From contig JBOIDR010000002.1 in assembly GCA_050740695.1 (NCBI GenBank), forward strand, positions 3,307 through 67,306: DNA of 64,000 bases, written 5' to 3'. The notes under the pieces are model-generated. The model was not told where the DNA came from and did no database searches. It saw nothing but the letters and a program-made list of their open reading frames with translations. The stretch comes from Gammaproteobacteria bacterium. GTDB taxonomy: Bacteria > Pseudomonadota > Gammaproteobacteria > JACCXJ01. A program made the position numbers and the translations under genes. This document shows, one piece after another, positions 19,402-35,856 of the stretch. Position 1 is the stretch's first letter; each line of letters opens with the position of its first letter.

Positions 19402-20295
19402 CTAGGCACGCGCGCGGCGCAGCCTGCTTCTCGCGGGCAGCTCGCTGTCGTAAATGCGCTTGACGCCGTCGCCGAGCGAGGTCTCGATGTCGCGGAGGTT
19501 GCGCACCAGGCGCTCGAAACCTCCGATCTCGACCGAGGCCGCCTGGTCGGTACCCCACGTGGCCCGATCGAGGGTGATATGGCGCTCGACGAAGGTGGCG
19601 CCCAGGGCCACCGCCGCGCCGCTCGGGGCGAGGCCGGTCTCGTGGCCGGAATACCCGATCGGGGTCTCGGGATAGGCGGCCTTCAGGGTCGGGATCATCT
19701 TGAGGTTCAGCTCTTCGAGCTTGCACGGGTAGGTAGAGGTCGAGTGCGCGATGAACAGTCCGGCCCGCCCCCCGGGACCGTGGAGACCGACGGTCTCGAC
19801 GGCCGTGCGGATCTCTTGCACCGTGGACATCCCGGTCGAGATCATGACCGGCCGCCCGGTCGCGCGTGCCTTGCGCAGTAAACGCAGATCCGTCAGTGAG
19901 GCGCTGGGGAGCTTGTAGAAAGGCGGCTCGAAACGCGCCATGAAGCCGATCGAGTCCTCGTCCCAACACGAGGCCGTCCAGTCGATCCCGAGATCGCAGC
20001 AGTAGCGGTCGATCTCCAGGTAATCCTCGACCCCGAGTTCAACGCGAAACCGGTAGTCGATGTAGCTCATCCGACCCCAGGGAGTGTCTCGCTCGACGCC
20101 CCACTGGTCCTTGGGCACGCATACCTCCGGATTGCGCTTCTGAAATTTCGCCATGTCGGCCCCGGCGCGCTTGGCGCCGGCGATGAGCGCCTTGGCGTGG
20201 GCGAGCGAGCCGTTATGGTTGATGCCGATCTCCGCGATAATGTAGACTGGCTCGCCGTCGCCTATTGCGCGTGCCCCGATATCCACGATTGCCAT
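19402..20295 (-). CDS. N-acetylneuraminate synthase (NeuB/SpsE) family protein. It has the TIM-barrel domain only, with no C-terminal SAF domain.
   Basis: MAIVDIGARAIGDGEPVYIIAEIGINHNGSLAHAKALI and ...GYSGHETG are NeuB-family motifs. Start at the internal Met. Confidence 0.7.
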   Translation of the reverse strand: MAIVDIGARAIGDGEPVYIIAEIGINHNGSLAHAKALIAGAKRAGADMAKFQKRNPEVCVPKDQWGVERDTPWGRMSYIDYRFRVELGVEDYLEIDRYCCDLGIDWTASCWDEDSIGFMARFEPPFYKLPSASLTDLRLLRKARATGRPVMISTGMSTVQEIRTAVETVGLHGPGGRAGLFIAHSTSTYPCKLEELNLKMIPTLKAAYPETPIGYSGHETGLAPSGAAVALGATFVERHITLDRATWGTDQAASVEIGGFERLVRNLRDIETSLGDGVKRIYDSELPARSRLRRARA

Positions 20296-20544
20296 GGTCC
20301 CCCTTTCTCGTCTCTTGCCTGTCGGACGCAAGCTATTCTTACAGCGGTCGCCAATCGCCCATTCTCGATCCCTAGCCCTCTCGCGGAGGCAAATGGGGCC
20401 TAAGGAGGCGATTCGTGGCCGTGCCTATCGTATGCCTTCAAATACGCCATGCCTGTGGCGCGGTTGGTGGGCGATGGCGCAGACAACGCCTCTAACCCCC
20501 AAACACAGGGATGCCCAGCCACCGCGGATGTTCGCACAGTCCTT

Positions 20545-21357
20545 TTACCAGATCGTGAACCCCCCGTCGACGATGAGGTTCGCGCCGCTCATATAGGCCG
20601 AGGCCTCGGAGGCCAGGAACACCAGCGCGCCTCGATAGTCCGTGGGCGCCGCCATGCGGCCGAGCGGCGTGCGGCGACCGTATTCCGCGACGAAGAAATC
20701 GTCCTGGCCGTTCTCGACCCCGCCGGGTGAAAGTGCATTGACGCGCACTCCACTAGCGCCCCAGTAGGCCGCGAGGAAGCGGGTGAAGGACAGCACCGCG
20801 CCCTTGCTGGTCGGGTAGGCGGGGGACTTGTAGAAACGCCGGCGGCCCTCGGGGTCGAGATAGAGCGATTGATCGGGGGCCACGACACCGTAGGTCGAGG
20901 CGATGTTGACGATGCTGCCGCGCCCGGTCTTGGCCATGTGCGTACCGATCACCTGTGAGGAGAGAAAGACCCCGGTCACGTTGACCTTGAGGACCTGTTC
21001 CCAGAGATCCAGCGGATAACGCTCGAAGCGCGACGATTCCAGCGCGGTGAACGGATCCTCGTAGCGGTCGTTCAGCGCCGCGTTGTTGACGAGCACGTCC
21101 ACCCTTCCTGTGATCGAGAGCACCGCCGCCAGCAGGATTTTGAGGGACTCGGGATCGCTCACGTCGGCCCGATGGCCGAAGGCACCGCCCCCGATCTCGG
21201 CGGCCAGGTGTTCGCACGCGGCGGCATCGAGGTCCGTCGCCACCACCCGGGCCCCTGCCTCCACCAGGGCGCGGCAGTGCTCGCGGCCCAGCAGACCGGT
21301 CGCGCCGGTCACGATCGCGGTCCGACCCTCTAACGAGAAGAGCTCCGTCGTGCTCAT
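20545..21357 (-). CDS. Short-chain dehydrogenase/reductase (SDR) family oxidoreductase.
   Basis: TAIVTGATGLLG (TGxxxGxG), NNAA and YxxxK-type motifs. The start ATG overlaps the upstream stop (ATGA). Confidence 0.8.
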   Translation of the reverse strand: MSTTELFSLEGRTAIVTGATGLLGREHCRALVEAGARVVATDLDAAACEHLAAEIGGGAFGHRADVSDPESLKILLAAVLSITGRVDVLVNNAALNDRYEDPFTALESSRFERYPLDLWEQVLKVNVTGVFLSSQVIGTHMAKTGRGSIVNIASTYGVVAPDQSLYLDPEGRRRFYKSPAYPTSKGAVLSFTRFLAAYWGASGVRVNALSPGGVENGQDDFFVAEYGRRTPLGRMAAPTDYRGALVFLASEASAYMSGANLIVDGGFTIW

Positions 21358-22718
21358 CACCCCTCCCGTGCCTCTGCCCGCGGCTTGGTATTGAGCCCGC
21401 CGGTCTTGCGGAACACCGGCTCGATCGGCGCCCCCTCGAGCGACTCCGAGACCCGCCCGGCATCGACCGCCTCTTCGAGGACGCCGAGCGCCTCGCCAAA
21501 GGCGGCGAGTGTGTAGTCGATGTCCTCTTGTGTATGGGAGTCGCAGAGGTTGTGGATGCCGGTCCACAAGACCCCGCGCCGGATCAGCTCCTGCTGGACC
21601 AGGGTCTTTAGGACCAGCGGATCACCGGCCCGGGTATCGTCCGCTGGGGTATCAAAACCGACCAGCGTCCGGAACGGATAGCCCGTGACCGAGACAAAAT
21701 CGAGCCCGAGCCTCCCGATGAGCCGTTGCAGGCCCTCCAGGAGCGACTGGCCGCGCAGGGCGATGCGCTCGATGACCCCGTGATCGCGGAGGTAGCGGAT
21801 GCAGGCGATCGAGGCGGCGAGCGACAGGGTCTCGCCGCCGAAGGTGGTGAAGAAAAACACATCTTTTTCCAGGAGCGACATCACGTCCCGTCGGCCGGTC
21901 ACGGCCGAGATCGGCATGCCGTTGGCCATGGCCTTGGAGAACAGCGACAGGTCCGAGCGCACCCCCAGGAACGCCTGGGCCCCGCCGAGGGCACAGCGGA
22001 AGCCCGTCCACATCTCGTCGAAGATGAGGAGCGCGCCGTTCCGATCGCAGAGCCGCCGCAGCTCCGCGAGAAAACCGCCTTGCTCGCGCTCGAAGGTGAA
22101 GGGCTCCAGGATCACGCAGGCGGTGTCGGTATCGAGCGCCGCGAGCACCGAATCGATGTCGTTGTAGCGGAAGGTGCCGGTCAGCTCGGCGGTCGCCACC
22201 GGGATGCCGGCGGCCCGATCGGTCACGGCGATGTACCAGTCGTGCCAGCCATGATAACCGCAGCACAGCACCCGCTCGCGCCCGGTGTAGGCGCGCGCCA
22301 ACCGCACCGCGGCGCTCGTCGCGTCGCAACCGGTCTTCGAAAAACGCACGGATTCGGCATGGGGCACGATCTCGCGCAGGAGCTCCGCCAGCTCGACCTC
22401 CAAGGGGTGCATGAGCGAGAAGGTGATCCCGTCTTCGAGCTGGCGGCGGATGGCCTCGTCCACCGCCGGGTGGCAGTAGCCCAGGATGATGGGACCGATG
22501 CCCATGTTGAAATCGAGAAACTCGTTGCCGTCCACGTCCCACACCCGCGCGCCGCGGCCGCGCGCGAGGTACTTGGGCGCTACGCCCCGAGAGAACTGCG
22601 TGGGTCCCTTGGCGAGGGTCTGGGTGCCCGCCGGGATGAGCCCCTGCGCCCGCGCCCAGAGGGCGTCCGAGCGCTCGATAGAAGGCAGTTCGGGGTTGGA
22701 TTGGACTCGGTTCGGCAT
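21357..22718 (-). CDS. Class III (PLP-dependent) aminotransferase, glutamate-1-semialdehyde aminomutase-like.
   Basis: Full-length match to the class III aminotransferase fold, including LIFDEMWTGFR and SKAMANGMPISAV (Schiff-base Lys region). Confidence 0.8.
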   Translation of the reverse strand: MPNRVQSNPELPSIERSDALWARAQGLIPAGTQTLAKGPTQFSRGVAPKYLARGRGARVWDVDGNEFLDFNMGIGPIILGYCHPAVDEAIRRQLEDGITFSLMHPLEVELAELLREIVPHAESVRFSKTGCDATSAAVRLARAYTGRERVLCCGYHGWHDWYIAVTDRAAGIPVATAELTGTFRYNDIDSVLAALDTDTACVILEPFTFEREQGGFLAELRRLCDRNGALLIFDEMWTGFRCALGGAQAFLGVRSDLSLFSKAMANGMPISAVTGRRDVMSLLEKDVFFFTTFGGETLSLAASIACIRYLRDHGVIERIALRGQSLLEGLQRLIGRLGLDFVSVTGYPFRTLVGFDTPADDTRAGDPLVLKTLVQQELIRRGVLWTGIHNLCDSHTQEDIDYTLAAFGEALGVLEEAVDAGRVSESLEGAPIEPVFRKTGGLNTKPRAEAREG

Positions 22719-22727
22719 GCGATCTCC

Positions 22728-23030
22728 TCAGAGACGTTCGAGCCGGGCCAGGACCTTGTGCGCCAAGGCCTCCGGCGTGTAGCCCTCATGCTCCAGGAGC
22801 GCCGGGTAGAGCGCCGGTTTGAACCAGCGGTCGGGGAGCGACAGGCACAGGGTCTCGGCCGTGACCCCCGCCTCGAGCAGGGTCTCGGCCAGGATACAGT
22901 ACAGGCCGCCGGTCTTAAAATGGTCCTCGACGACTACCAGAAGCCGGCAGGAACGGGCGACGGCGACGAGGCAATCCCGGTCCACCGGTTTCAAGGTCCG
23001 CAGGTTCACGAGCCCGACCGACAGGTGCCG
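22728..23030 (-). pseudogene. Truncated 3' part of a transketolase C-terminal-subunit gene, covering about 80 of 302 aa. The intact paralog is at 30767..31675.
   Basis: Residues LVNLRTLKPVDRD...LERL match the intact copy. Similarity is lost upstream of about 23030. Confidence 0.6.
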
Positions 23031-23534
23031 CGTGAGGGGGCACCTCAACCTGGTCCGCTGAGGGGGGTATTGGCGTTGACCGGCACGTTCGGAGTGATGT
23101 CGGGACGTAGCCTGGCGCTGCATCCTCGGCGCGCCAAGCATGCCCTTCCTTGGGCCTGGCTCCGGGCGCGAGCACGTCATGAAATATTACTCAAGCCGAG
23201 TATACTTTCATAGCTGATCCAAACGAGCTAGGCCAAGCGTTCGGAAACAATTATGAGAAATTTAGTATTAGACAAGATAAGAAAGCGTTCCAACTCTATG
23301 ACGATGGTTGGCGGCTAGCGTGGTAAGCTCTCTAAGTGAAATATTAGACGAGATAAATGCCTCTCTCATGACAGCCAGCGAACGCTGTGGCCGTTACCGT
23401 GCTGCACGGATCAGGGGACAATACACCCTTTTCTGCTATCGGGGCAAATAGGGGGCAAACAATGAGATCGGCTCTAACCATTGCTATGCTTGTTGCTTCG
23501 TTCATTCACGGATGTGCCATGGAGCGCACGGCGA

Positions 23535-23830
23535 ATAGGGATTTTAAACGTCCTTTTTATAAAGAAGCAGAGTACTGCTCGGCTTCGTGAGCTGTCAAGC
23601 ATACGGGTCCGCGGCCTCGGATCGGGCCCTTCCTCGGCCCGAGGCGCTATGTTTCGGGGCGTTTTGGGGTCTCGGGCGAGCGAGGGCCAAGAGGAAGCTC
23701 AGGGGCTGAGCCGGATGGGAGGGGGGTCGGTGGGGGATCAGACCTGTTGGAATCGATCGAAGGCCCTGGCCGCTGCTCGGGGCGGTGCTCGGGCGGACAT
23801 GCCAAGATGCTTGAGGATCTTGGCTCGCGG
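23535..23830. repeat. Copy A of an approximately 290-bp repeat. It carries the 3' tail of an IS91-family transposase remnant.
   Basis: Near-identical to 29113..29395, with a few indels and substitutions. Confidence 0.7.
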
Positions 23831-24621: not shown

Positions 24622-24729
24622 ATCAATCACGGTGGGATCTACGATGGCGGCGATGATCGTCAAGGGGCCACCGCACTGGGGGCAGTGCTCGATGTCGATC
24701 TCGAACACTCGTTTGAGCAGCCGGGCCCA
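24622..24729 (-). pseudogene. IS91/ISCR-family transposase zinc-finger segment remnant (WARLLKRVFEIDIEHCPQCGGPLTIIAAIVDPTVID).
   Basis: The same peptide is contiguous with the ILKHLG tail in copy B at 29313..29495. Here it is separated from the tail by the DUF899 segment. Confidence 0.5.
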
Positions 24730-24781
24730 GCTTATGGGGGCAGGCGCCGCGGGAGGGCGCACCTCAGCATAGTCCGCTGAG

Positions 24782-27848: not shown

Positions 27849-28592
27849 TCACGACAAGAAATGGTGCACGACTAAGAGTAATAATCCACTGCAGTAGAAA
27901 ATGATATTTAGACCATACAACTCGATACTGTCGGCAAGCTGCGAAAACCCACCCACTCCACAGCTCACGGGGATTTCTCGGACATGCTTAGTTTTTGAAT
28001 AGAAAAATGTGTCTGATTCGCGAAGTGTTAATTCTACGAGAGCTATGGACCACTTACTACCAATAAGCCAGTTCCAGACGAGAAGATATATTGAAATAAG
28101 GCAGTAGGAGATAAAAGAACCAATCGGCTTGATAGAAAAAGGGACGCACGCAACTACCAGAGTTGCACCAAATAGGTAATAGAGCCATGTAGTCGGATCT
28201 TTCGCGCTCATCAAATAAATCAGCGATCCTTCGCTAATCGGATGACGCCTCATTAGTCCGCGAAACAGCAAGGGCCCGGCCAGCGTAAGCTCGTCAAACA
28301 ATGACCTGCATTCTTGTAAGGATTGCTTTTCCCTAAAAGCGAAAAGGGAATTAACAAAATGCTCGGCGCAGAACTTGTGCGCAATAGTCATGATCAGAAC
28401 TGCTATCCAAGCTTGCGCCGTTGAAAGCTCTACGTCGCCTACTTTGAACGTGGACTTTCCAGTCAGTTTCAACGCCACGATTGTCAGGGTTAGGGTTGCA
28501 AAAAAGATAAGCACCTTGCCAAGAAGTTCTGCATTACTTGAAGCCGCTGCCTTCAGAACGTCGTCCTTCTTATCGATTTTTTTCTGCGGCAT
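27849..28592 (-). CDS. Low-GC polytopic membrane protein of unknown function.
   Basis: GC is about 40-45% against a 67% background. Four or five hydrophobic helices. No recognisable motif. Confidence 0.5.
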   Translation of the reverse strand: MPQKKIDKKDDVLKAAASSNAELLGKVLIFFATLTLTIVALKLTGKSTFKVGDVELSTAQAWIAVLIMTIAHKFCAEHFVNSLFAFREKQSLQECRSLFDELTLAGPLLFRGLMRRHPISEGSLIYLMSAKDPTTWLYYLFGATLVVACVPFSIKPIGSFISYCLISIYLLVWNWLIGSKWSIALVELTLRESDTFFYSKTKHVREIPVSCGVGGFSQLADSIELYGLNIIFYCSGLLLLVVHHFLS

Positions 28593-28705: not shown

Positions 28706-29062
28706 CTACTTCTCGCGACGTCGCCGGAGCGGAGAAACGGAACGGTTCATCGTGTACCTCATAAAAGCCGGGCTCCTGCCCGTTCGGTTCAGGCCGCCCA
28801 TCGGAAGAACGGAGGCCGGTAGCCCGAGGGAGAGGCGGAAGCGTTTGACAGGGCGCAGCCTTCCTTGAGCGCAGTGCGGGCAGCGTTTGGGGTGGGTTCC
28901 GAGGATCCGAACGAGGAACGCTTCGACGGTTTCCGGTTCGCGCGGTGCGGGAATGGAGACATCGAGGGCGAGCCGACAGGAGTGTCGGATCCGCATGAAG
29001 CCCTTGGGGAGCAAGTGGAGCAGAAATCGACGGATAAACTCCTCGACCGGGAGGCGCATCAC
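28706..29062 (-). mobile_element. IS91-family (HUH Y2) transposase fragment covering the C-terminal approximately 115 aa only.
   Basis: FIRRFLLHLLPKGFMRIRH...KRCPHCAQG matches the conserved C-terminal region of IS91-family transposases. The N-terminal catalytic part is absent. It abuts the repeat at 29113. Confidence 0.5.
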
Positions 29063-29112
29063 CTTCCCTTTTTTGCGATGAGCGTAGTCCCGCCAACGGA
29101 AACGGAGCGAAT

Positions 29113-29395
29113 AGGGATTTTAAACGTCCTTTTTATAAGAAGCAGAGTACTGCTCGGCTTCGTGAGCTGTCAAGCATACGGGTCCGCGGCCTCGGATCGG
29201 GCCCTTCCTTCGGCCCGAGGCGCTATGTTTCGGGACGTTTTGGGGTCTCGGGCGAGCGAGGGCCAAGAGGAGCTCAGGGGCTGAGCCGGATGAGAGGGGG
29301 GTCGGTGGGGGATCAGGCCTGTTGGAATCGATCGAAGGCCCTGGCCGCTGCTCGGGCGGACATGCCAAGATGCTTGAGGATCTTGGCAATCACGG
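29113..29395. repeat. Copy B of the approximately 290-bp repeat (see 23535..23830).
   Basis: Direct sequence comparison. Confidence 0.7.
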
Positions 29396-29495
29396 TGGGA
29401 TCTACGATGGCGGCGATGATCGTCAAGGGGCCACCGCACTGGGGGCAGTGCTCGATGTCGATCTCGAACACTCGTTTGAGCAGCCGGGCCCAGTG
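29313..29495 (-). pseudogene. IS91/ISCR-family transposase C-terminal remnant, with the zinc finger and tail contiguous.
   Basis: WARLLKRVFEIDIEHCPQCGGPLTIIAAIVDPTVIAKILKHLGMSARAAARAFDRFQQA. Confidence 0.5.
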
Positions 29496-29664
29496 TCGCT
29501 CTTCCCAGAAGGCTGTCAGTATTGATAGTAGCATGCGGTTGCCGCCTGAGGCAATGGCACTGCACGTGGCCATTGGTGCAGTCAGACTTCCCGTGCTTAG
29601 CCCAGCCTGCAGGGGACTTGTAGAAACGCCGGCGGCCCTCGCGGTCGAGATAGAGCGATTGATC

Positions 29665-30757
29665 CGGGGCCGGGTATCGCCCGCTGGGGTATCAAAACCG
29701 ACCAGCGTCCGGAACAGATAGCCCGTGACCGAGACAAAATCGAGCCCGAGCCTCCCGATGAGCCGTTGCAGGCCCTCCAGGAGCGACTGGCCGCGCAGGG
29801 CGATGCGCTCGATGACCCCGTGATCGCGAAGGTGCCGGATGCAGGCGATCGAGGCGGCGAGCGACAGGGTCTCGCCCCCGAAGGTGGTAAAAAAAACACG
29901 TCCTTTTCGAGGAGCGACATCACGTCCCGTCGCCCGGTCACGGCCGAGATCGGCATGCCGTTGGCCATGGCCTTGGAGAACAGCGACAGGTCCGAGCGTA
30001 CCCCCAGGAACGCCTGGGCCCCGCCGAGGGCAGAGCGGAAACCGGTCCACATCTCGTCGAAGATGAGAAGCGCGCCGTCGCGATCGCAGAGCCGCCGCAG
30101 CTCCGCGAGAAAACCGTTCTGCTCGCGCTCGAAGGTGAAGGGCTCCAGGATCACGCAGGCGGTGTCTGTATCGAGCGCCGAGAGCACCGAATCGATGTCG
30201 TTGTAGCGGAAGGTGGCGGTCAGCTCGGCGGTCGCGGCCGGGATGCCGGCGGCCCGATCGGTCACGGCGATGTACCAGTCGTGCCAGCCATGATAACCGC
30301 AGCACAGCACCCGCTCGCGCCCGGTGTAGGCGCGCGCCAGTCGCACCGCGGCGCTCGTCGCGTCGCAGCCGGTCTTCGAAAAACGCACGGATTCGGCATG
30401 GGGAACGACCTCGCGCAAGAGCTCCGCGAGCTCGACCTCCAGGGGGTGCATGAGCGAGAAGGTGATCGCGTCTTCGAGCTGGCGGCGGATGGCCTCGTCC
30501 ACCACCGGGTGGCAATAGCCCAGGATGATGGGACCGATGCCCATGTTGAAATCGAGGAACTCGTTGCCATCCACGTCCCACACCCGCGCGCCGCTACCGC
30601 GCGCGAGGTACTTGGGCGCCACGCCCCGGGAGAACTGCGTGGGTCCCTTGGCGAGCGTCTGGGTGCCCGCCGGGACGAGTCCTTGCGCCCGCGCCCAGAG
30701 AGCGTCCGAGCGCTCGATGCAGGGCAGTTGGGGGTTGGATTGGACTCGGTTCGGCAT
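29665..30757 (-). pseudogene. Second, diverged copy of the class III aminotransferase gene. It has one frameshift in an A8 homopolymer near 29890 and is 3'-truncated.
   Basis: About 93% identity to 21625..22718. The frame switches after ...LLEKDVFF. Similarity ends at GFDTPAGDTRP. It is followed by a 60-bp piece identical to the SDR gene's 3' region (20822..20885). Confidence 0.65.
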
Positions 30758-30766
30758 GCGCTCTCC

Positions 30767-31675
30767 TCAGAGACGTTCGAGCCGGGCCAGGACCTTGCGC
30801 GCCAAGGCCTCCGGCGTGTAGCCCTCGTGCGCCAGGAGCGCCGGGTAGAGCGCCGGTTTGAACCAGCGGTCGGGGAGCGACAGGCACAGTGTTTCGGCCG
30901 TGACCCCGGCCTCGAGGAGGGTCTCGGCCAGGATGGAGTACAGGCCGCCGGTCTTGAAGTGGTCCTCGACGACCACCAGAAGCCGGCAGCAATGGGCCAG
31001 GCCGACGAGGAGATCCCGGTCCACCGGCTTCAAGGTGCGGAGGTTCACGAGCCCGACCGACAGGCCGTTTTTTCGCAAGCGCTCGGCCGCCTGGTGACAC
31101 TCCGAGAACAGCACCCCATAGGCCAAGAACGTCGCGTCCCGGCCCTCGGCCAGCACCTCGGCACGGCCGGGGGCGAAGTCGGGGGTGTGGGTGACCACCG
31201 GGCCCTGGGCGTTATAGCGGATGTAATACGGTGCGGGATCGAGGAGCACCGTATCGAGCCCGATCAGCAAATCGTCGAGGTCCGCGGGACAGAAGACCTT
31301 CATGTTGGGGATGCCGCGCATGAGCGCCACGTCTTCGATGGCTTGATGGGTCGGGCCGTTGGCCTCCGAGACGAAGCCCGGGAAGCTCCCCACAAGCTTG
31401 ACGGGCAGGCACGGGATACCGACATCGGTGCGGATGAACTCGAAGGCCCGGAGCGTCAGGAAGGCCGCGAGCGCGTGGATGACCGGGATGCGGCCGCGCA
31501 GCGCCAGTCCCGCCGCCATTCCGACCATGGTTTGCTCGGCGATCCCGACATCGATGAAGCGCGCTCCCAGCCGCTCGGGCAGTGTCCGGATCGCGGCCCG
31601 GTTCTCGGCCGTCATGGCGATGAGCCGCTCGTCCTGTTTGGCGAGACGGTAAAGGGCGTCTTCGTAACTTGTCAA
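30767..31675 (-). CDS. Transketolase C-terminal subunit of a split transketolase.
   Basis: A 302-aa match to the transketolase pyrimidine-binding/C-terminal section (IAEQTMVGMAAGLALRG...). Confidence 0.8.
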   Translation of the reverse strand: MTSYEDALYRLAKQDERLIAMTAENRAAIRTLPERLGARFIDVGIAEQTMVGMAAGLALRGRIPVIHALAAFLTLRAFEFIRTDVGIPCLPVKLVGSFPGFVSEANGPTHQAIEDVALMRGIPNMKVFCPADLDDLLIGLDTVLLDPAPYYIRYNAQGPVVTHTPDFAPGRAEVLAEGRDATFLAYGVLFSECHQAAERLRKNGLSVGLVNLRTLKPVDRDLLVGLAHCCRLLVVVEDHFKTGGLYSILAETLLEAGVTAETLCLSLPDRWFKPALYPALLAHEGYTPEALARKVLARLERL

Positions 31676-31761
31676 CTACCGTTTCCCTTTGGGCTATTGG
31701 AGTCTGCTCGGGCTTACCCGCAGCCGAGCAACTTGGGCCGCAGGCTTTCGTTGACCCGTAT

Positions 31762-32469
31762 CTATTTAGCTTTCGCTTCTACTATATGATCGAATGCTGT
31801 TTTGTAGATTATTATTCTACCAAACACGTCGGAGCTTAACCCGAAGTCTTCGACACGTATCTCCTGGTCCTGCGCCGGATCCCAGAAATCGACGACTATG
31901 AGCAGCCAATAAGCATCACAATTAGTATACTCTTTAACCTTGTTCTCTTTAGTCCTTATGATATCCGACAGCCTTTGAATGGACATCATAGGTACAGTGT
32001 AGACATTATAAGCCCTCCACTTGGGATCGCTATACAGTTTTGTATTCACATATAGGTAGTCCAGTTCAGGGAGGTCCTTGTATACGTGTCTGAATACCGT
32101 ACCTGCATCCAACGCCTCAACCCGTTTTGCCAATTCAACGAGTTTCTTCACAAACTTATTCGTTTGTCCGATCGGCTTTTCCAAATTGAACCCAACAGAT
32201 ATCTCGATCGGCTTTCCCCCTTGATCCACGAACTGTCGTTGCGCTTCTTGCAGAACGTCTTGTCGAATTTTGTCTTGCTTCTGCTCGTTGTCCGCGATCG
32301 CTCCATCCTGCAAAAAGAACCGGGTTACTTCTATGCCGATTTTTCTTTGCCCTTCGATTATCACATCCGGCTTGTCGCCATGCTTGACCTCTCCCTCCGG
32401 AAGGGCATACGCTCCGCGGAATCGTTCGAAGTAGTATCGTTCAATTTCTTGATTGGACATTGACCTCAA
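31762..32469 (-). CDS. Low-GC hypothetical protein (235 aa) inserted between the two transketolase subunit genes. Possibly nuclease-like.
   Basis: GC is about 42%. N-terminal GDKPDVIIEGQRKIGIEVTRF is reminiscent of a PD-(D/E)xK core (weak). No other match. Confidence 0.45.
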   Translation of the reverse strand: MRSMSNQEIERYYFERFRGAYALPEGEVKHGDKPDVIIEGQRKIGIEVTRFFLQDGAIADNEQKQDKIRQDVLQEAQRQFVDQGGKPIEISVGFNLEKPIGQTNKFVKKLVELAKRVEALDAGTVFRHVYKDLPELDYLYVNTKLYSDPKWRAYNVYTVPMMSIQRLSDIIRTKENKVKEYTNCDAYWLLIVVDFWDPAQDQEIRVEDFGLSSDVFGRIIIYKTAFDHIVEAKAK

Positions 32470-32534
32470 TCCTGTCGAGCTAAAGCGAACTTGATGTTCG
32501 ACGGACCCGTGGACTCATTCCTGAAAATAGCACG

Positions 32535-33392
32535 CTACCGCGCGACGATGGTCTCGCTCGCGAGCACGGCCTCACGGGTCCCCTCCAGTTCCTCCAAAAG
32601 CATCTCGACCTCCCCGGAGGTGAAGTTGCAGAACCAACGGTCGGCGCGGGCCGTCAGGCTCGGCAGGCCCTGGCCGCGCACGGTGTCCGCGATGACGGCG
32701 CTTGGCCGGCCCAGGGCGATCGGGATGCGCGCCAGGCCGCGTTCGATAGAATCGAAGTCATGACCGTCGATGCGCAAGGCCGCCCAGCCGAAGGCATGGA
32801 ACTTCTCTTCGAGGGGTTCGAGCGGGATTAGGTCCTCGGTCGCGACGTTGGCCTGAAAGCCGTTGCGGTCTACGATGCAAACGAGGTGGTCCATCCCCTT
32901 GGCGGCCGCGACCAGGGCCGCCTCCCACACCGATCCCTCGTTCAGCTCCCCGTCGCCGAGGACCACCACCACGCGGTTCGGGCCGCCGCAAAGCCTCACG
33001 TCGAGCGCGATGCCGAGGCCCACCGAAAGCAGGTGGCCGAGCGAGCCGGAATGGAACTCTACGCCCGGAATATTACGGTTCGGATGCCAGTAGATGTCGT
33101 CGCCGGGCGCGAGGTGTCGTGCGAGGCGTGCGGGATCGAGGACCCCAAGCTCGGCTAATAGCCCGTACAACGCGGGGACATCGTGTCCCTTGGAGAGCAA
33201 GAGGTAATCACGCTCGGGGTCCTCTAGCCGCGCCGCATCGAATCTGAGCCAGCGGGCATAGAGATACGTCAAGAGATCCACGCACGACAGCGAGGCCCCG
33301 ATGAAACAACCCCCGCGGGTCGCCATGCGGACGATATGGCCGCGCACGCGATGGGCGAGCGCTTGGAGATCTTTTTCGTCCTCTGGAGTCAT
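32535..33392 (-). CDS. Transketolase N-terminal (TPP-binding) subunit.
   Basis: MTPEDEKDLQALAHRVRGHIVRMATRGGCFIGASLSCVDLLTYLY...LSKGHDVPALY is typical of the split transketolase N subunit. Confidence 0.8.
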   Translation of the reverse strand: MTPEDEKDLQALAHRVRGHIVRMATRGGCFIGASLSCVDLLTYLYARWLRFDAARLEDPERDYLLLSKGHDVPALYGLLAELGVLDPARLARHLAPGDDIYWHPNRNIPGVEFHSGSLGHLLSVGLGIALDVRLCGGPNRVVVVLGDGELNEGSVWEAALVAAAKGMDHLVCIVDRNGFQANVATEDLIPLEPLEEKFHAFGWAALRIDGHDFDSIERGLARIPIALGRPSAVIADTVRGQGLPSLTARADRWFCNFTSGEVEMLLEELEGTREAVLASETIVAR

Positions 33393-34240
33393 AGGGACGG
33401 GACGGCGCGCGTCTCCGCCGCGCCGATGGTGCGGAGCCGATGCAGGTGATGGCGATACCAGTTGACACCGGCGTACTTCGCATTGATCGCCGCAAGCCCC
33501 GGGCGGCGGTCCAAGAGGTCCAGGATGTCGTAGAGACCGAAGGCGGGATCGGCGGGATACAGGGCCTCGTACACCCGCCGGATGAATTCATAGTCCTCGG
33601 GATAGTCGATGGTCCAGCGGTGCGACATCGAATAGTTCCTGCCGGGGCGGCCGTCGGTCCGCTCCTCCCACGCGACGTTACTCAACGGGAAACACAAGGG
33701 CCGCTCCCAGATGAAGGGCGTCGTGTGCTCGCGCTCGAAATCCAACCGGGCCTCGCGAAAGGCGCATTCCAAGACCTCGACCGACATGAGCTCGGCGTCG
33801 TTGCCATCCGGGAAAGAGGCGGGGTGCAGGTTGCTCGTGTAATCGCTGTCTCCTTCCGCGAAGCGTGCGAAGACCGCGTCAATGACCGCCGGATCGACGA
33901 GCGGGCAGTCGGATGGCACCTTGGCGAGCACCTCCGCGCCGTAGCGGCGCGCGACCTTGAGGTGACGGTCGAGGAGATCGGTCGGGTGCCCCCGAAAGAC
34001 CTCGATCCCTGCCGCCCGGCACACCGAGACGAGCCCATCGTCGGCGGGATCGGTCGTCGTGGCCACCACGATCCGCCCCGGGGTCTTCATGCGCGCCACG
34101 CGCTCGACCATGCGCACGATGAGCGGTTCGCCGGCGAGGTCCATCAAGACCTTGCCCGGCAGGCGGGTCGAGCCCAGCCGTGCCTGCACGACCACGAGTG
34201 ATTCAGCCCCGCTCACGGGCCCCCCTCCCTCCCCTGCCAT
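33389..34240 (-). CDS. Acylneuraminate cytidylyltransferase family protein (SpsF/CMP-sugar synthetase-like).
   Basis: VVVQARLGSTRLPGKVL...VVATTTD is the cytidylyltransferase N-terminal signature. Its stop overlaps the tktN start (ATGA). Confidence 0.75.
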   Translation of the reverse strand: MAGEGGGPVSGAESLVVVQARLGSTRLPGKVLMDLAGEPLIVRMVERVARMKTPGRIVVATTTDPADDGLVSVCRAAGIEVFRGHPTDLLDRHLKVARRYGAEVLAKVPSDCPLVDPAVIDAVFARFAEGDSDYTSNLHPASFPDGNDAELMSVEVLECAFREARLDFEREHTTPFIWERPLCFPLSNVAWEERTDGRPGRNYSMSHRWTIDYPEDYEFIRRVYEALYPADPAFGLYDILDLLDRRPGLAAINAKYAGVNWYRHHLHRLRTIGAAETRAVPSL

Positions 34241-34443: not shown

Positions 34444-35856
34444 ATGCAAACGTCTCGGGTGTGGATCTGGCAACAATCTGATTGGCCGCCGATGAAGATC
34501 AAAGGGTTCCGCTGGGATCAAGGGGCGCTGGCCCCTTGGCTTTCGCGTGCGCGGCTGGCTCAGGGCAAGGTGCTGGGTGCCACACAGTGGCTCGATCCCA
34601 ACCTGACGTTGGAAGCCGTGGCCGTCATCCTGGTCGAGGATGGGGTTACAACGAGCGCGATCGAGGGCGACCTGTTGGATCTGGACGCGGTTCGGTCGTC
34701 GGTTGCTCGCCATCTCGGCTTGCCTACCGCCGGTCTGCCCGCACCACCGCGCGCCGTTGATGGCTTGATTTCAATATGAAGGGTTCAAACCCCCGCCTTT
34801 CAGGCGGGCAGATTTCATCTGCAGCCATGAGCGGGCATGGTAGCATAGTCTGATTGAAGAAGGGGATCCGATGGACGGCAGCCATACGGTAGTCAAGATT
34901 GAATGCCACTTTGTCTGGGTAACGAAGTATCGCTACCAAATCCTGAAGGGAGAGGTGGAGCCGTAGACGCGTCGTTCAGTCGACGCGTATCCGGACTTTC
35001 AGTCCGTAACTCAAACCCACCGGCTTTTAGCCGGTGGTTGTTTAGTGAGGTGCTGCTCGATGCCACCCGTGACCTCGGTTCGCCCCTGACCGCTAAGCGC
35101 CTCTGCGGCTGGCAGGCATCCCTGTTCCCCACAGGCTACTCGGGTCTGCACCAGATCCGAACCGGCGCACTACGGGGTGATGAGCCGATGCAGGTCATCT
35201 CCGGGCGCATCGGCCATGAGCGCGTTCATTTCACCGCACCACCGCGTGAGGGGCTGGACCTGGAACTGGATCGCTTTCTGGCGTGGTTCAATGCATCCCC
35301 GACCGATTTGGATGGACTGATCCGCGCAGGTCTCGCGCACCTGTGGTTCGTGACGCTTCACCCTTTTGAAGACGGCAACGGCCGACTGGCCCGCGCCATC
35401 ACCGACAGAGCCTTGTCGCAGGACGAGCACCGGCCGATGCGGTTTTTCAGCCTGTCTGCACAGATCCTGCGCGAGCGAGAGGGCTACTACAACATCCTCG
35501 AACACACTCAAGGTGGCAGCGTCGATGTCACGGACTGGCTGGCGTGGTTCCTGGTGCAAGTCGAGGCCTCGGCCACGGCGGCGGAAAAGACTGTCGACAC
35601 CACGCTGGCAAAGGCGAGATTCTGGCTGCGTCACCAGGCTGCGGATCTCAACGAGCGCCAGCGCAAGGTGCTCAACCGGCTGCTCGACGCAGGCCGGGAC
35701 GGCTTCGAAGGCGGGATCAACACCCGCAAGTACATGAGCCTGACCAAGACCAGTCGCGCCACAGCCTACCGTGAGATCGCTCTACTGATCGAGAAGGGCT
35801 GCCTCACGCCGACCGGCAAGGGCGGACGGAGTAGCGGCTACGAGATCGTTTGGTGA
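34444..35856 (+). pseudogene. Fic/Doc-family (AMPylation) gene, split by an approximately 260-bp insertion.
   Basis: The N part (34444..34779) has the TSAIEG motif. The C part (about 35040..35856) has the Fic motif HPFEDGNGRLAR. The two parts are in different frames, separated by the inserted element. Confidence 0.6.
34785..35045. mobile_element. IS200/IS605-derived miniature element. It carries a TnpA N-terminal remnant and is flanked by similar hairpins.
   Basis: An internal ORF encodes MDGSHTVVKIECHFVWVTKYRYQILKGEV, the HUH Y1 TnpA N-terminus. Flanking hairpins are TCAAACCCCCGCC-TTTCA-GGCGGG and TCAAACCCACCGGC-TTTTA-GCCGGTGG. Confidence 0.5.

What the first reader, a model, noticed from the sequence alone, without database searches (positions are those of the whole stretch)
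31676..32534. Low-GC gene inserted between the two subunit genes of the split transketolase
tktN and tktC are normally adjacent. Here a GC-poor (about 42%) 235-aa ORF sits between them on the same strand. Its N-terminus (HGDKPDVIIEGQRKIGIEVTR) weakly resembles a PD-(D/E)xK nuclease core. This is an intra-operon insertion of foreign origin. It could be a selfish or defense-type nuclease, or it could polar-disrupt the sugar pathway.
Basis: partly seen in the sequence, partly recalled or inferred. Interest (0 to 1): 0.55.

Follow-up and report, generated by a model that had tools for sequence, protein, structure and literature searches.

The report
Fossil integron cassette inside a sugar operon
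The GC-poor gene between the two transketolase-like subunit genes is real and foreign: it belongs to a large uncharacterised family that mostly travels as single-gene integron cassettes, and this copy became fixed inside a sugar-biosynthesis operon; what the protein does is still unknown, and the suspected nuclease fold was not confirmed.

Summary
A 232-aa ORF (31762-32460, minus strand) with 45% GC (GC3 52% against 81-87% in the flanks) sits between the tktN-like and tktC-like genes. These lie in a cytidylyltransferase-TKN-TKC-aminotransferase-SDR-NeuB cluster.

It is a genuine insertion. In 64 orthologous junctions the median spacer is 45 nt. The closest relatives carry a BrnT/BrnA toxin-antitoxin pair at this site instead, and other lineages carry ParE modules or a Uma2 gene.

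The ORF belongs to a family of about 1,900 clusters with no Pfam, NCBIfam, PADLOC or PDB match. In 36 of 87 homologue loci the stop codon is followed within 4-10 nt by a covariation-supported attC site, usually inside multi-attC arrays. The family is therefore an integron cassette family.

The window copy keeps the cassette 5' end (TTAGCTCGACA; one match in 64 kb, 0.04 expected). It also keeps an R''-like box at the usual offset. Its attC is no longer detectable.

A diverged relative has the same tktN-X-tktC layout (dS 0.15, dN/dS 0.42), so the insertion is old and the gene is still constrained.

The PD-(D/E)xK idea rests only on motif and strand order. Three Foldseek searches found nothing significant.

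Verdict: a new member of a known kind, of moderate interest.

The parts
31762..32460 (-). Gene X: a 232-aa stand-alone ORF (ATG at 32460; an alternative TTG start at 32469 gives 235 aa). It belongs to an uncharacterised cassette-borne protein family.
   Evidence: ORF. 171 homologues, and 1,943 clusters at 50% identity with E<=0.001. All family-invariant residues are present. No family model matches. GC 45.4% and GC3 52%.
32473..32483 (-). Cassette 5' end: TTAGCTCGACA, lying 13-23 nt upstream of the ATG. It corresponds to the G|TTAACTCGAYAG... start of homologous cassettes (the 3' half of the R' core plus the 5' UTR).
   Evidence: Upstream regions of the homologues are. 36 of 79 distinct upstream regions carry TTAACT. 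The pattern TTARCTCGAYA occurs once in the 64-kb window, here, against 0.04 expected.
32484..32534 (-). 51-nt spacer between the tktN stop codon and the cassette 5' end. Its origin is unexplained. It contains a small CGAAC-ATCAA-GTTCG palindrome.
   Evidence: Sequence. It is conserved in L175 and shows no similarity to the spacers of L008-L019. No attC model match.
31676..31761 (-). 86-nt 3' spacer, probably a decayed attC. It has an R''-like box GGGTCAAC at 31750-31757 (its AAC ends 12 nt after the stop codon), an imperfect hairpin at 31704-31732, and G|TTGACA at 31670-31676 overlapping the tktC TTG start codon.
   Evidence: In homologues the R'' AAC ends 10-15 nt after the stop codon. The attC covariance model does not match here; a forced local search gives 3.2 bits with E 3.5. 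The fold z-score is about 0. The hairpin is not kept by compensatory changes in L175.
32535..33392 (-). tktN-like gene (transketolase N-terminal, TPP-binding subunit), immediately upstream of the insert.
   Evidence: Pfam Transketolase_N, E 6e-21. Orthologues in 80 genomes. dN/dS 0.16-0.25.
30767..31675 (-). tktC-like gene (transketolase pyrimidine-binding plus C-terminal subunit), immediately downstream. It has a TTG start and an AAGGGA Shine-Dalgarno-like box about 10 nt upstream.
   Evidence: Pfam Transket_pyr and Transketolase_C. dN/dS 0.22-0.28. Sequence.
33389..34240 (-). Cytidylyltransferase (CTP_transf_3), the first gene of the conserved four-gene unit cyt-tktN-tktC-aminotransferase.
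   Evidence: Pfam match. Conserved gene order.
29597..30757 (-). Class-III aminotransferase gene, truncated. It is homologous to orthologues only up to about residue 294 and is followed by IS91-family (Y2_Tnp) remnants. An intact copy lies at 21357-22718.

Best explanation
Gene X is a stand-alone, horizontally acquired gene that began as a single-gene integron cassette. Its family circulates in environmental bacteria mainly as promoterless cassettes: about 20 nt of 5' UTR beginning TTAACTC, then the ORF, then an attC site.

In an ancestor of this gammaproteobacterial lineage one such cassette was integrated outside any integron. It landed in the short spacer between the two subunit genes of a transketolase-like enzyme in a nonulosonic-acid-type sugar cluster, in the same orientation as the operon. 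The most likely route is IntI-catalysed attC x genome-site ('attG') recombination; this step is inferred.

Because the cassette has no promoter of its own, X is presumably transcribed by read-through from the operon promoter (inferred). With no integrase and no selection on the recombination site, the attC decayed, which fixed the gene in place. The ORF itself stayed intact and constrained.

The protein acts alone, since it has no conserved partner gene. Its biochemical function is unknown. My best guess, at roughly one chance in three, is a metal-dependent nuclease-like enzyme with a divergent PD-(D/E)xK-type core (E7/E12, D29, P31-D32, E44-x-T46, Q62/R66) that serves in defence or conflict, like many cassette genes.
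For: Shown:
1. The gene is real and conserved: 171 close homologues and 1,943 clusters at 50% identity, nearly all about 235 aa and single-domain. The window copy keeps all 19 invariant residues.
2. It is an insertion. The junction median is 45 nt in 64 orthologous operons, and a different cargo (BrnT/BrnA) sits there in the 93%-identical relatives.
3. The family is cassette-borne.
   - 34 attC sites next to homologues fit an R''/L''...L'/R' structure: 89.6% of cells paired against 21-40% in slid controls, and 8 pairs show changes on both sides.
   - The covariance model built from them finds 75 sites (E<=0.01), all on the gene's strand, in 460 kb of homologue loci.
   - 36 of 87 loci have an attC starting 4-10 nt after the stop codon, and many loci hold 3-5 attCs.
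   - The same model finds nothing in 307 kb of tkt loci.
4. The window copy keeps cassette hallmarks. TTAGCTCGACA lies 13-23 nt before the ATG (unique in 64 kb, 0.04 expected). GGGTCAAC ends 12 nt after the stop codon, where homologues have GAGTTAAC. The nearest relatives with readable flanks (L176 at 63% identity, L095 at 57%) are cassette-borne.
5. The insertion is old and the gene is constrained. L175 has the same tktN-X-tktC arrangement at 91% nucleotide identity, with dN/dS 0.42 and both ORFs intact.
6. X is co-oriented with the operon, and no conserved neighbour family appears among 234 neighbouring ORFs.
7. The family is persistently GC-poor relative to its hosts.

From the literature: integrases can insert cassettes at genomic GWT 'attG' sites; such cassettes are expressed when they land near a resident promoter; and isolated cassettes (SALINs) are common (bioRxiv 10.1101/2022.09.11.507474).
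Against: - The 86-nt 3' spacer is not recognised as an attC by the model, and it folds no better than shuffled sequence. So the defining recombination site is absent, and 'decayed' is an inference.
- No integrase and no other attC was found in the 64-kb window.
- The other inserts at the same and neighbouring junctions (BrnTA, ParE, Uma2) also lack attC sites, so this junction can acquire genes by non-integron routes.
- The roughly 13 nt before the tktC start (GGGAAACGGTAG) resemble the corresponding host sequence in BrnTA-bearing relatives. The apparent R' box GTTGACA at the tktC start may therefore be coincidental, which leaves the exact right boundary uncertain.
- The 51-nt left spacer is unexplained.
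- No integron integrase was seen in the short flanks of the homologue arrays; the only tyrosine recombinase there sits next to an IS91-type transposase.
- Nuclease function: no significant fold or sequence match, and the motif lysine is missing.
Confidence: 0.68

Rival explanations
1. X is a selfish nuclease that inserted itself, like a free-standing homing endonuclease or an addiction module. It would cut a target in or near the tktN/tktC junction and be copied in by repair, or stabilise itself by killing cells that lose it.
For: The motif and strand order resemble a PD-(D/E)xK core. The same junction holds other selfish modules in relatives: BrnTA, ParE and a Uma2 putative endonuclease. X also sits between the two subunit genes of a GlcD/GlcF-like oxidase in another lineage.
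Against: Homologues occupy many unrelated sites with no shared target sequence. There is no partner antitoxin or immunity gene. No homing-endonuclease or toxin family matches. The nuclease fold is not confirmed. About 40% of homologues are plainly attC-bounded cassettes, which need no self-mobility.
Confidence: 0.1
2. X reached the junction by a route that did not involve an integrase. Examples are illegitimate or homologous recombination of a DNA fragment that happened to carry a cassette, or the same unknown mechanism that delivered the TA modules to this operon. Under this reading the cassette-like ends are only inherited baggage.
For: Neither the junction nor the neighbouring cyt-tktN junction has any attC, yet both hold TA modules in several lineages. 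The window has no integrase. The attC is undetectable.
Against: Similarity to cassettes ends at the canonical crossover point on the 5' side (TTAGCTC preceded by unrelated sequence). An integrase-cut cassette predicts exactly this; a random fragment does not.
Confidence: 0.17
3. X is a recruited accessory enzyme of the sugar pathway, for example a modifying or regulatory protein that works with the split transketolase. On this view it is a functional part of the operon, not a passenger.
For: It is co-oriented with the operon. It has been retained over dS of about 0.15 with dN/dS 0.42. It is placed between two co-translated subunit genes.
Against: It is absent from more than 60 orthologous operons across phyla, and its closest relatives carry a toxin-antitoxin pair at this site. 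Homologues have no association with tkt, NeuB or sugar genes. Its composition is foreign.
Confidence: 0.04
4. The arrangement is an assembly or binning artefact: a chimeric join of a low-GC fragment into a high-GC contig.
For: The window comes from a metagenome-assembled genome. It contains a 1.4-kb internal duplication at 94.5% identity, which shows that the region is complex.
Against: The identical junctions appear in an NCBI MAG contig and an independent Logan assembly. The same layout at 91% nucleotide identity appears in a third sample (L175).
Confidence: 0.01

Closest known systems
Integron gene cassettes of unknown function (gcu), including the recently described phage-defence cassettes of mobile and sedentary integrons
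   Same: The family is a single short ORF with a 5' UTR of about 20 nt that starts at the R' crossover. In 36 of 87 homologue loci an attC of 57-94 nt starts 4-10 nt after the stop codon. The cassettes are co-oriented in arrays and are GC-deviant. Papers: bioRxiv 10.1101/2024.07.02.601686 and 10.1101/2024.07.02.601719.
   Different: The window copy has no detectable attC, array or integrase. No defence or other function has been shown for this family, and it matches no PADLOC model.
Cassettes inserted at genomic 'attG' sites, and SALINs (single attC sites lacking an integrase); Loot et al., bioRxiv 10.1101/2022.09.11.507474
   Same: It is an isolated cassette-derived gene outside an integron. 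It is oriented so that a resident promoter can drive it, and its 5' boundary lies at the canonical crossover point.
   Different: A SALIN is defined by a detectable attC, and here that test fails. The base before the crossover is T (A in L175) and not G. The event is ancient and fixed, not recent and not excisable.
Type II toxin-antitoxin modules (BrnT/BrnA, ParE-type) lodged at the same junction in relatives
   Same: They occupy the same tktN-tktC spacer, are co-oriented with the operon, are small, and have lower GC than the host.
   Different: TA modules are two-gene systems. X is a single gene with no conserved partner and has no similarity to toxins.
PD-(D/E)xK (restriction-endonuclease-like) nucleases such as Hjc, VRR-NUC and Cas4/RecB-family enzymes
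   Same: X has a predicted alpha-beta-beta-beta-alpha-beta order, a conserved acidic residue in helix 1, 'PD' at the start of strand 2 and 'E-x-T' in strand 3. Such nucleases recur among the non-significant Foldseek hits to the full-length model.
   Different: The motif lysine is an invariant threonine. No hit is significant: best E 0.04, and the alignments to nucleases have rmsd 7-27 A. The N-terminal half modelled alone gives no nuclease hits. No HMM match.
Free-standing homing endonuclease genes placed between genes in phage genomes (established knowledge, not tested here)
   Same: A small foreign gene lodged in an intergenic spacer between conserved, co-transcribed genes, present or absent among close relatives.
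   Different: X matches no known homing-endonuclease family, has no conserved target site and is absent from phage collections.

Membership tests
Integron gene cassette | A single promoterless ORF whose 5' end starts at the R' crossover (G|TTRRRY) a few to tens of nucleotides before the start codon | tested here: met
   TTAGCTCGACA lies 13-23 nt before the ATG, aligned with the G|TTAACTCGAYAG of cassette-borne homologues. The pattern is unique in 64 kb against 0.04 expected. The preceding base is T or A, not G.
Integron gene cassette | An attC recombination site at the 3' end (R''-L''...L'-R' imperfect palindrome with extrahelical bases) | tested here: not met
   Covariance model R1, built from 34 attCs of the family, gives no match at 31676-31761. 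The local search gives 3.2 bits with E 3.5. The fold z-score is about 0. In 36 of 87 homologue loci the feature is met.
Integron gene cassette | Residence in an array next to intI/attI, or at least in a cluster of attC sites | tested here: not met
   No attC anywhere in the 64-kb window (best E 1.8). No tyrosine recombinase found by phmmer with one query or by Pfam on 20 ORFs; that integrase test is not exhaustive.
SALIN / attG-inserted cassette | An isolated CDS associated with a detectable attC, away from any integrase, inserted at a GWT/GNT genomic site | tested here: inconclusive
   The isolated-CDS and no-integrase parts are met. The attC is not detectable. The target triplet cannot be read because both junctions have diverged.
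PD-(D/E)xK nuclease superfamily | Catalytic motif D...(D/E)-x-K on strands 2 and 3 of the core | tested here: not met
   D32 and E44 are invariant, but the third position is an invariant Thr46 and not Lys. A relocated basic residue (K30, R66) is possible but untested.
PD-(D/E)xK nuclease superfamily | Alpha-beta-beta-beta-alpha-beta core fold, shown by significant structural or profile similarity to a known member | tested here: not met
Type II toxin-antitoxin system | Two adjacent co-transcribed genes, toxin plus cognate antitoxin | tested here: not met
   It is a single-gene unit. No neighbour family recurs among 234 neighbouring ORFs apart from duplicate contigs. There are no toxin or antitoxin Pfam hits.
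Known anti-phage defence systems (PADLOC-DB 2.0) | Match to a defence-system protein model | tested here: not met
   No PADLOC hit at E<=1. Only one homologue (L088) lies in a defence-island-like context, beside an OLD/GajA-like ATPase and a type II R-M system.
Split transketolase operon accessory gene | Conserved co-occurrence with tktN/tktC across orthologous operons | tested here: not met
   X is absent from all 80 genome loci fetched with tktN. It is present only in the window lineage and in L175.

The most novel reading that the evidence does not exclude
X founds an unrecognised family of stand-alone, integron-disseminated conflict or defence enzymes. It would have a divergent, lysine-less nuclease-like active site and a fold with no solved relative. 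Spacers between the subunit genes of two-subunit enzymes (tktN/tktC here, GlcD/GlcF-like elsewhere) would act as 'safe harbours'. There, promoterless selfish genes gain guaranteed expression and are hard to delete, which would explain why TA modules, a Uma2 gene and X all accumulate at the same junction.
Probability: 0.2. Interest if true: 0.65.

Novelty: new member of a known kind. Interest (0 to 1): 0.42.

Why it matters
It gives a natural and apparently ancient example of an integron cassette escaping the integron. The cassette became a fixed, still-constrained gene inside a housekeeping-type operon in uncultured methanotroph-related Gammaproteobacteria. This is the outcome predicted by the experimental 'attG' work.

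It also flags a large protein family of about 1,900 clusters at 50% identity. The family is absent from Pfam, NCBIfam, PADLOC, PHROGs and the PDB, and nearly absent from sequenced plasmids and phages. It is a well-defined target for function discovery among cassette 'dark matter'.

Finally, the spacer between the two halves of a split enzyme has been colonised independently by at least four kinds of small mobile module. That pattern may be a general rule worth testing.

Tried and rejected
- **Family models.** Pfam, NCBIfam, PADLOC and PHROGs scans of X, plus a Pfam scan of 48 family members, found nothing consistent.
- **Solved structures by sequence.** PDB profile searches with the full-length and N-terminal alignments gave only E 0.1-1 hits (SLFN11 N-lobe and a designed protein). 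I treat these as noise.
- **Fold search.** Foldseek on the full-length model against PDB and BFVD, and on the N-terminal half against PDB, gave no significant hit. The truncated model lost strand 4, so the protein is probably one domain and not two.
- **Domain fusions.** Longer family members show only one weak HTH_3 fusion.
- **Conserved partner gene.** None found.
- **Phages and plasmids.** No IMG/VR or GenBank phage hit, and only one plasmid fragment.
- **attC in the window and in the other junction inserts.** The covariance model found none. I therefore dropped my first reading that GTCAAC...GTTGAC bracket an intact attC.
- **Allele swapping.** The apparent difference between L098 and L162 was rejected. 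The two loci are 96% identical throughout.
- **Integrase next to the homologue arrays.** Not found within the fetched flanks.
- **Promoter and terminator scan around X.** Nothing above chance.

Full report
**1. Observation**

The ORF exists as described. It runs 31762..32469 on the minus strand (235 aa from TTG). The ATG at 32460 (232 aa) is the likely start, because it matches the deposited protein P0001 and the starts of the homologues.

It lies between a Transketolase_N gene (32535..33392) and a Transket_pyr/Transketolase_C gene (30767..31675), all on the same strand. The stated interval is 47.1% GC. The ORF is 45.4% GC with GC3 52%, against 66-67% GC and GC3 81-87% in the flanking genes. 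Only one other stretch of the 64-kb window is this GC-poor.

**2. The operon**

The two transketolase-like genes belong to a conserved unit: cytidylyltransferase, TK-N, TK-C, class-III aminotransferase. I recovered this unit in 80 genomes from several phyla. In the window it continues, after a rearrangement, into an SDR gene and a NeuB-family gene. It is therefore a nonulosonic-acid-type sugar cluster and not the pentose-phosphate transketolase.

**3. It is an insertion, and the junction is colonised repeatedly**

- Across 64 orthologous junctions the tktN-to-tktC spacer has a median of 45 nt, and 36 are 60 nt or less.
- Similarity between the window and its closest relatives (L008-L010, 93% TK-N identity) stops at the tktN stop codon and resumes at tktC codon 3.
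- Those relatives carry a BrnT/BrnA toxin-antitoxin pair at the site; L008 carries only the BrnA gene.
- Two Chitinophagaceae genomes carry a ParE-type module there. One gammaproteobacterial MAG carries a Uma2 putative endonuclease.
- The neighbouring cyt-to-tktN spacer also holds gene-sized inserts in five lineages. The tktC-to-aminotransferase spacer never does.

**4. The gene family**

X has 171 close homologues. A profile search gives 1,943 clusters at 50% identity with E<=0.001. Almost all are about 235 aa with one matched stretch.

None has a Pfam domain. X matches nothing in Pfam, NCBIfam, PADLOC or PHROGs. It is absent from phage collections and nearly absent from sequenced plasmids.

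Homologues sit in unrelated contexts:
- UbiA-X-aldo/keto reductase, X-HrpB, and TPR-X-RecO.
- IlvD-X-DUF255.
- Between a GlcD-like FAD oxidase gene and a GlcF-like Fe-S gene.

No neighbour family recurs among 234 neighbouring ORFs. The gene is GC-poorer than its flanks by more than 5 points in 46 of 69 loci and never richer by that margin.

**5. The family is carried by integron cassettes**

- In the 80 metagenome loci the neighbours are mostly co-oriented small ORFs at about 85-100 nt spacing.
- The stop codon is typically followed by GAGTTAAC, an imperfect palindrome, and then CGTTRRR.
- Upstream, about 20 nt before the ATG, lies G|TTAACTCGAYAG, preceded by another such palindrome.
- An alignment of 34 of these sites supports the classical attC architecture: an R''/R' helix and an L''/L' helix with a bulged base. 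89.6% of cells are paired against 21-40% when the partner is slid, and 8 pairs show changes on both sides.
- A covariance model built from the alignment finds 75 sites at E<=0.01 in 460 kb of homologue loci, all on the gene's strand.
- 36 of 87 loci have an attC starting 4-10 nt after the stop codon, and several loci have 3-5 sites.
- No integron integrase was seen in the short flanks available. Strictly, these are attC clusters.

**6. The window copy**

The model finds no attC in the window: none at E<=1 anywhere, and only a 3.2-bit local match in the 3' spacer. It also finds none in 307 kb of tkt loci, including the TA inserts.

Two cassette hallmarks do survive:
- TTAGCTCGACA lies 13-23 nt before the ATG. 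This matches the cassette 5' end of the homologues. The pattern TTARCTCGAYA occurs once in 64 kb against 0.04 expected.
- GGGTCAAC ends 12 nt after the stop codon. In 39 of 79 distinct homologue loci an R'' box ends 10-15 nt after the stop.

The nearest relatives with readable flanks are cassette-borne. L176 (63% identity) has the R' boundary and the R'' box. L095 (57%) has attC sites on both sides.

I infer a cassette whose attC has decayed. The exact right boundary is uncertain. The last 13 nt or so before the tktC start look host-derived when compared with BrnTA-bearing relatives. The GTCAAC/GTTGAC pairing that first caught my eye may therefore be coincidence. The 51-nt left spacer remains unexplained.

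**7. Age and constraint**

A 1-kb contig from another sample (L175) has the same tktN-X-tktC layout at 91% nucleotide identity, again with 45.5% GC inside 64.6% flanks.

Between the two X copies dN is 0.063 and dS is 0.152 (ratio 0.42). There are 30 amino-acid changes and one two-codon indel, and both reading frames are intact. The 3' spacer diverges faster, and its hairpin is not maintained by compensatory changes.

tktN and tktC are under ordinary purifying selection (dN/dS 0.16-0.28 against L008-L010). The insertion is therefore old, the gene is still useful or at least constrained, and it has not killed the flanking genes.

A parallel case is the GlcD/GlcF-embedded copy. It is shared by genomes that are only 77-80% identical at the nucleotide level, yet it stays at 34-38% GC inside 63-70% flanks.

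**8. What the protein might do**

The AlphaFold model from a 48-sequence alignment is moderately confident (pLDDT 82.5, pTM 0.55). It shows one alpha/beta unit beginning helix(3-17)-strand-strand-strand-helix(57-79)-strand.

The invariant residues D29, P31, D32, E44 and T46, the near-invariant E7 and E12, and Q62 and R66 fall where a PD-(D/E)xK enzyme has its helix-1 acid, its 'PD' and its '(D/E)xK'. But the lysine is a threonine, and nothing significant came from any search:
- Foldseek against PDB: best E 0.04, to an unrelated protein.
- Foldseek against BFVD: best E 0.13.
- PDB sequence profiles.
- A model of residues 1-118 alone, which lost strand 4 and hit nothing relevant.

PD-(D/E)xK proteins (Hjc, Cas4, VRR-NUC, YqaJ, MmcB) are noticeably frequent among the non-significant hits to the full-length model. 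This is a lead, not evidence.

One homologue lies in an overlapping operon, resolvase-X-WGR-(weak AbiU2-like HEPN). That operon sits next to an OLD/GajA-like ATPase and a BsuBI/PstI-type R-M system on a MobA-bearing contig. This context is anecdotal.

Because the cassette holds X alone, the protein must be tolerable without an immunity partner.

**9. Mechanism and rivals**

Best supported (about 0.68): cassette origin, integration outside an integron in operon orientation, read-through expression, attC decay and fixation. The integrase step and the expression step are inferred. They match experimental work showing IntI-mediated insertion at genomic GWT 'attG' sites, expression near resident promoters, and abundant isolated cassettes (bioRxiv 10.1101/2022.09.11.507474).

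Rivals:
- The same cassette-derived DNA arrived by a non-integrase route, as the attC-less TA modules at this junction must have (0.17).
- Self-insertion by a homing or addiction nuclease (0.10).
- A recruited pathway enzyme (0.04).
- An assembly artefact (0.01).

**10. Novelty**

Cassettes of unknown function, isolated cassettes and TA modules in operons are all known kinds. This is a new member, a fossil example in an unusual place. It belongs to a large family that no database describes and whose predicted fold has no recognisable relative.

Noticed in passing
window 29667-31064 versus 21627-23025; also 28706-29062 and 29313-29600: The sugar cluster is broken a second time. The aminotransferase gene after tktC is truncated at about residue 294, next to IS91-family (Y2_Tnp) transposase remnants. 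A 1.4-kb segment (tktC 3' end plus aminotransferase 5' part) is repeated 8 kb away at 94.5% identity. There an intact aminotransferase (21357-22718) is followed by SDR (20545-21567) and NeuB (19402-20331) genes. Shorter repeats at 29107-29493 match 23531-23824 and 24624-24730.
   Followed up: partly
window 27849-28592 (minus strand): This is the second GC-poor ORF in the window (about 44-48% GC): 247 aa, apparently multi-pass membrane, with no Pfam, NCBIfam, PADLOC or PHROG match. It lies inside the 8-kb block that interrupts the aminotransferase gene. No cassette-like ends were seen by eye.
   Followed up: partly
L009 1045-1561; L010 4940-5456; L008 4809-5186; L066 4885-5429; L073 4184-4692; L012 5526-6134: In other genomes the tktN-tktC spacer holds BrnT/BrnA pairs (only BrnA in L008), ParE-type toxin-antitoxin pairs and a Uma2 putative endonuclease. 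None has a detectable attC. This makes at least four independent colonisations of one inter-subunit spacer.
   Followed up: yes
L010 2654-4000; L031 3211-4000; L066 3299-4000; L073 2638-3276; L055 275-1007: The cyt-tktN spacer of the same operon also carries gene-sized inserts in five lineages. They include a small two-gene toxin-antitoxin-like pair plus a RAYT-like transposase fragment in L010, and a nucleotidyltransferase-like pair in L031. These assignments are judged by eye from the sequence, not by HMM.
   Followed up: no
L162 5910-6000 and 6705-6790; L098 5925-5975 and 6705-6745; also L097 and L099: In a lineage where X sits between a GlcD-like FAD oxidase gene and a GlcF-like Fe-S/CCG gene, the gene is bracketed by inverted arrays of tandem heptamers: (CAGTAAG/CAGTGAG)n upstream and (CTTACTG/CTCACTG)n downstream. 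An R''-like GGGTTAAC follows directly after the stop codon. The arrangement is shared by genomes only 77-80% identical, yet X stays at 34-38% GC in 63-70% GC flanks. The role of the heptamer arrays is unexplained.
   Followed up: partly
L088 5426-7507 and 7548-12171: One X homologue, seen on 24 contigs, lies in a tightly overlapping four-gene string: serine resolvase, X, a 75-aa WGR protein, and a 187-aa weak AbiU2-like HEPN protein. The contig is MobA/MobL relaxase-bearing. The string sits beside an OLD/GajA-like ATPase and a BsuBI/PstI-type restriction-modification pair, which is a defence-island-like setting.
   Followed up: partly
window 34444-34779 and 34903-35856 (plus strand): A Fic-family gene next to the operon appears split into a DUF4172 (Fic N-terminal) ORF and a separate Fic-domain ORF. 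This suggests a frameshift or a pseudogene.
   Followed up: no
X residues 44-118 (window about 32107-32331): Both PDB profile searches returned the N-lobe of human SLFN11 (7fex_A residues 21-95) at E 0.4-0.9, aligning 'GIEVT...helix...GGKPIEISVGF' with a Schlafen core segment. The hit is not significant and Foldseek does not support it. It is recorded only as a lead.
   Followed up: partly
L007 1090-3649: In one homologue locus the mutS gene is called as two ORFs (domains I-IV, and domain V). This is probably a frameshift in that assembly.
   Followed up: no
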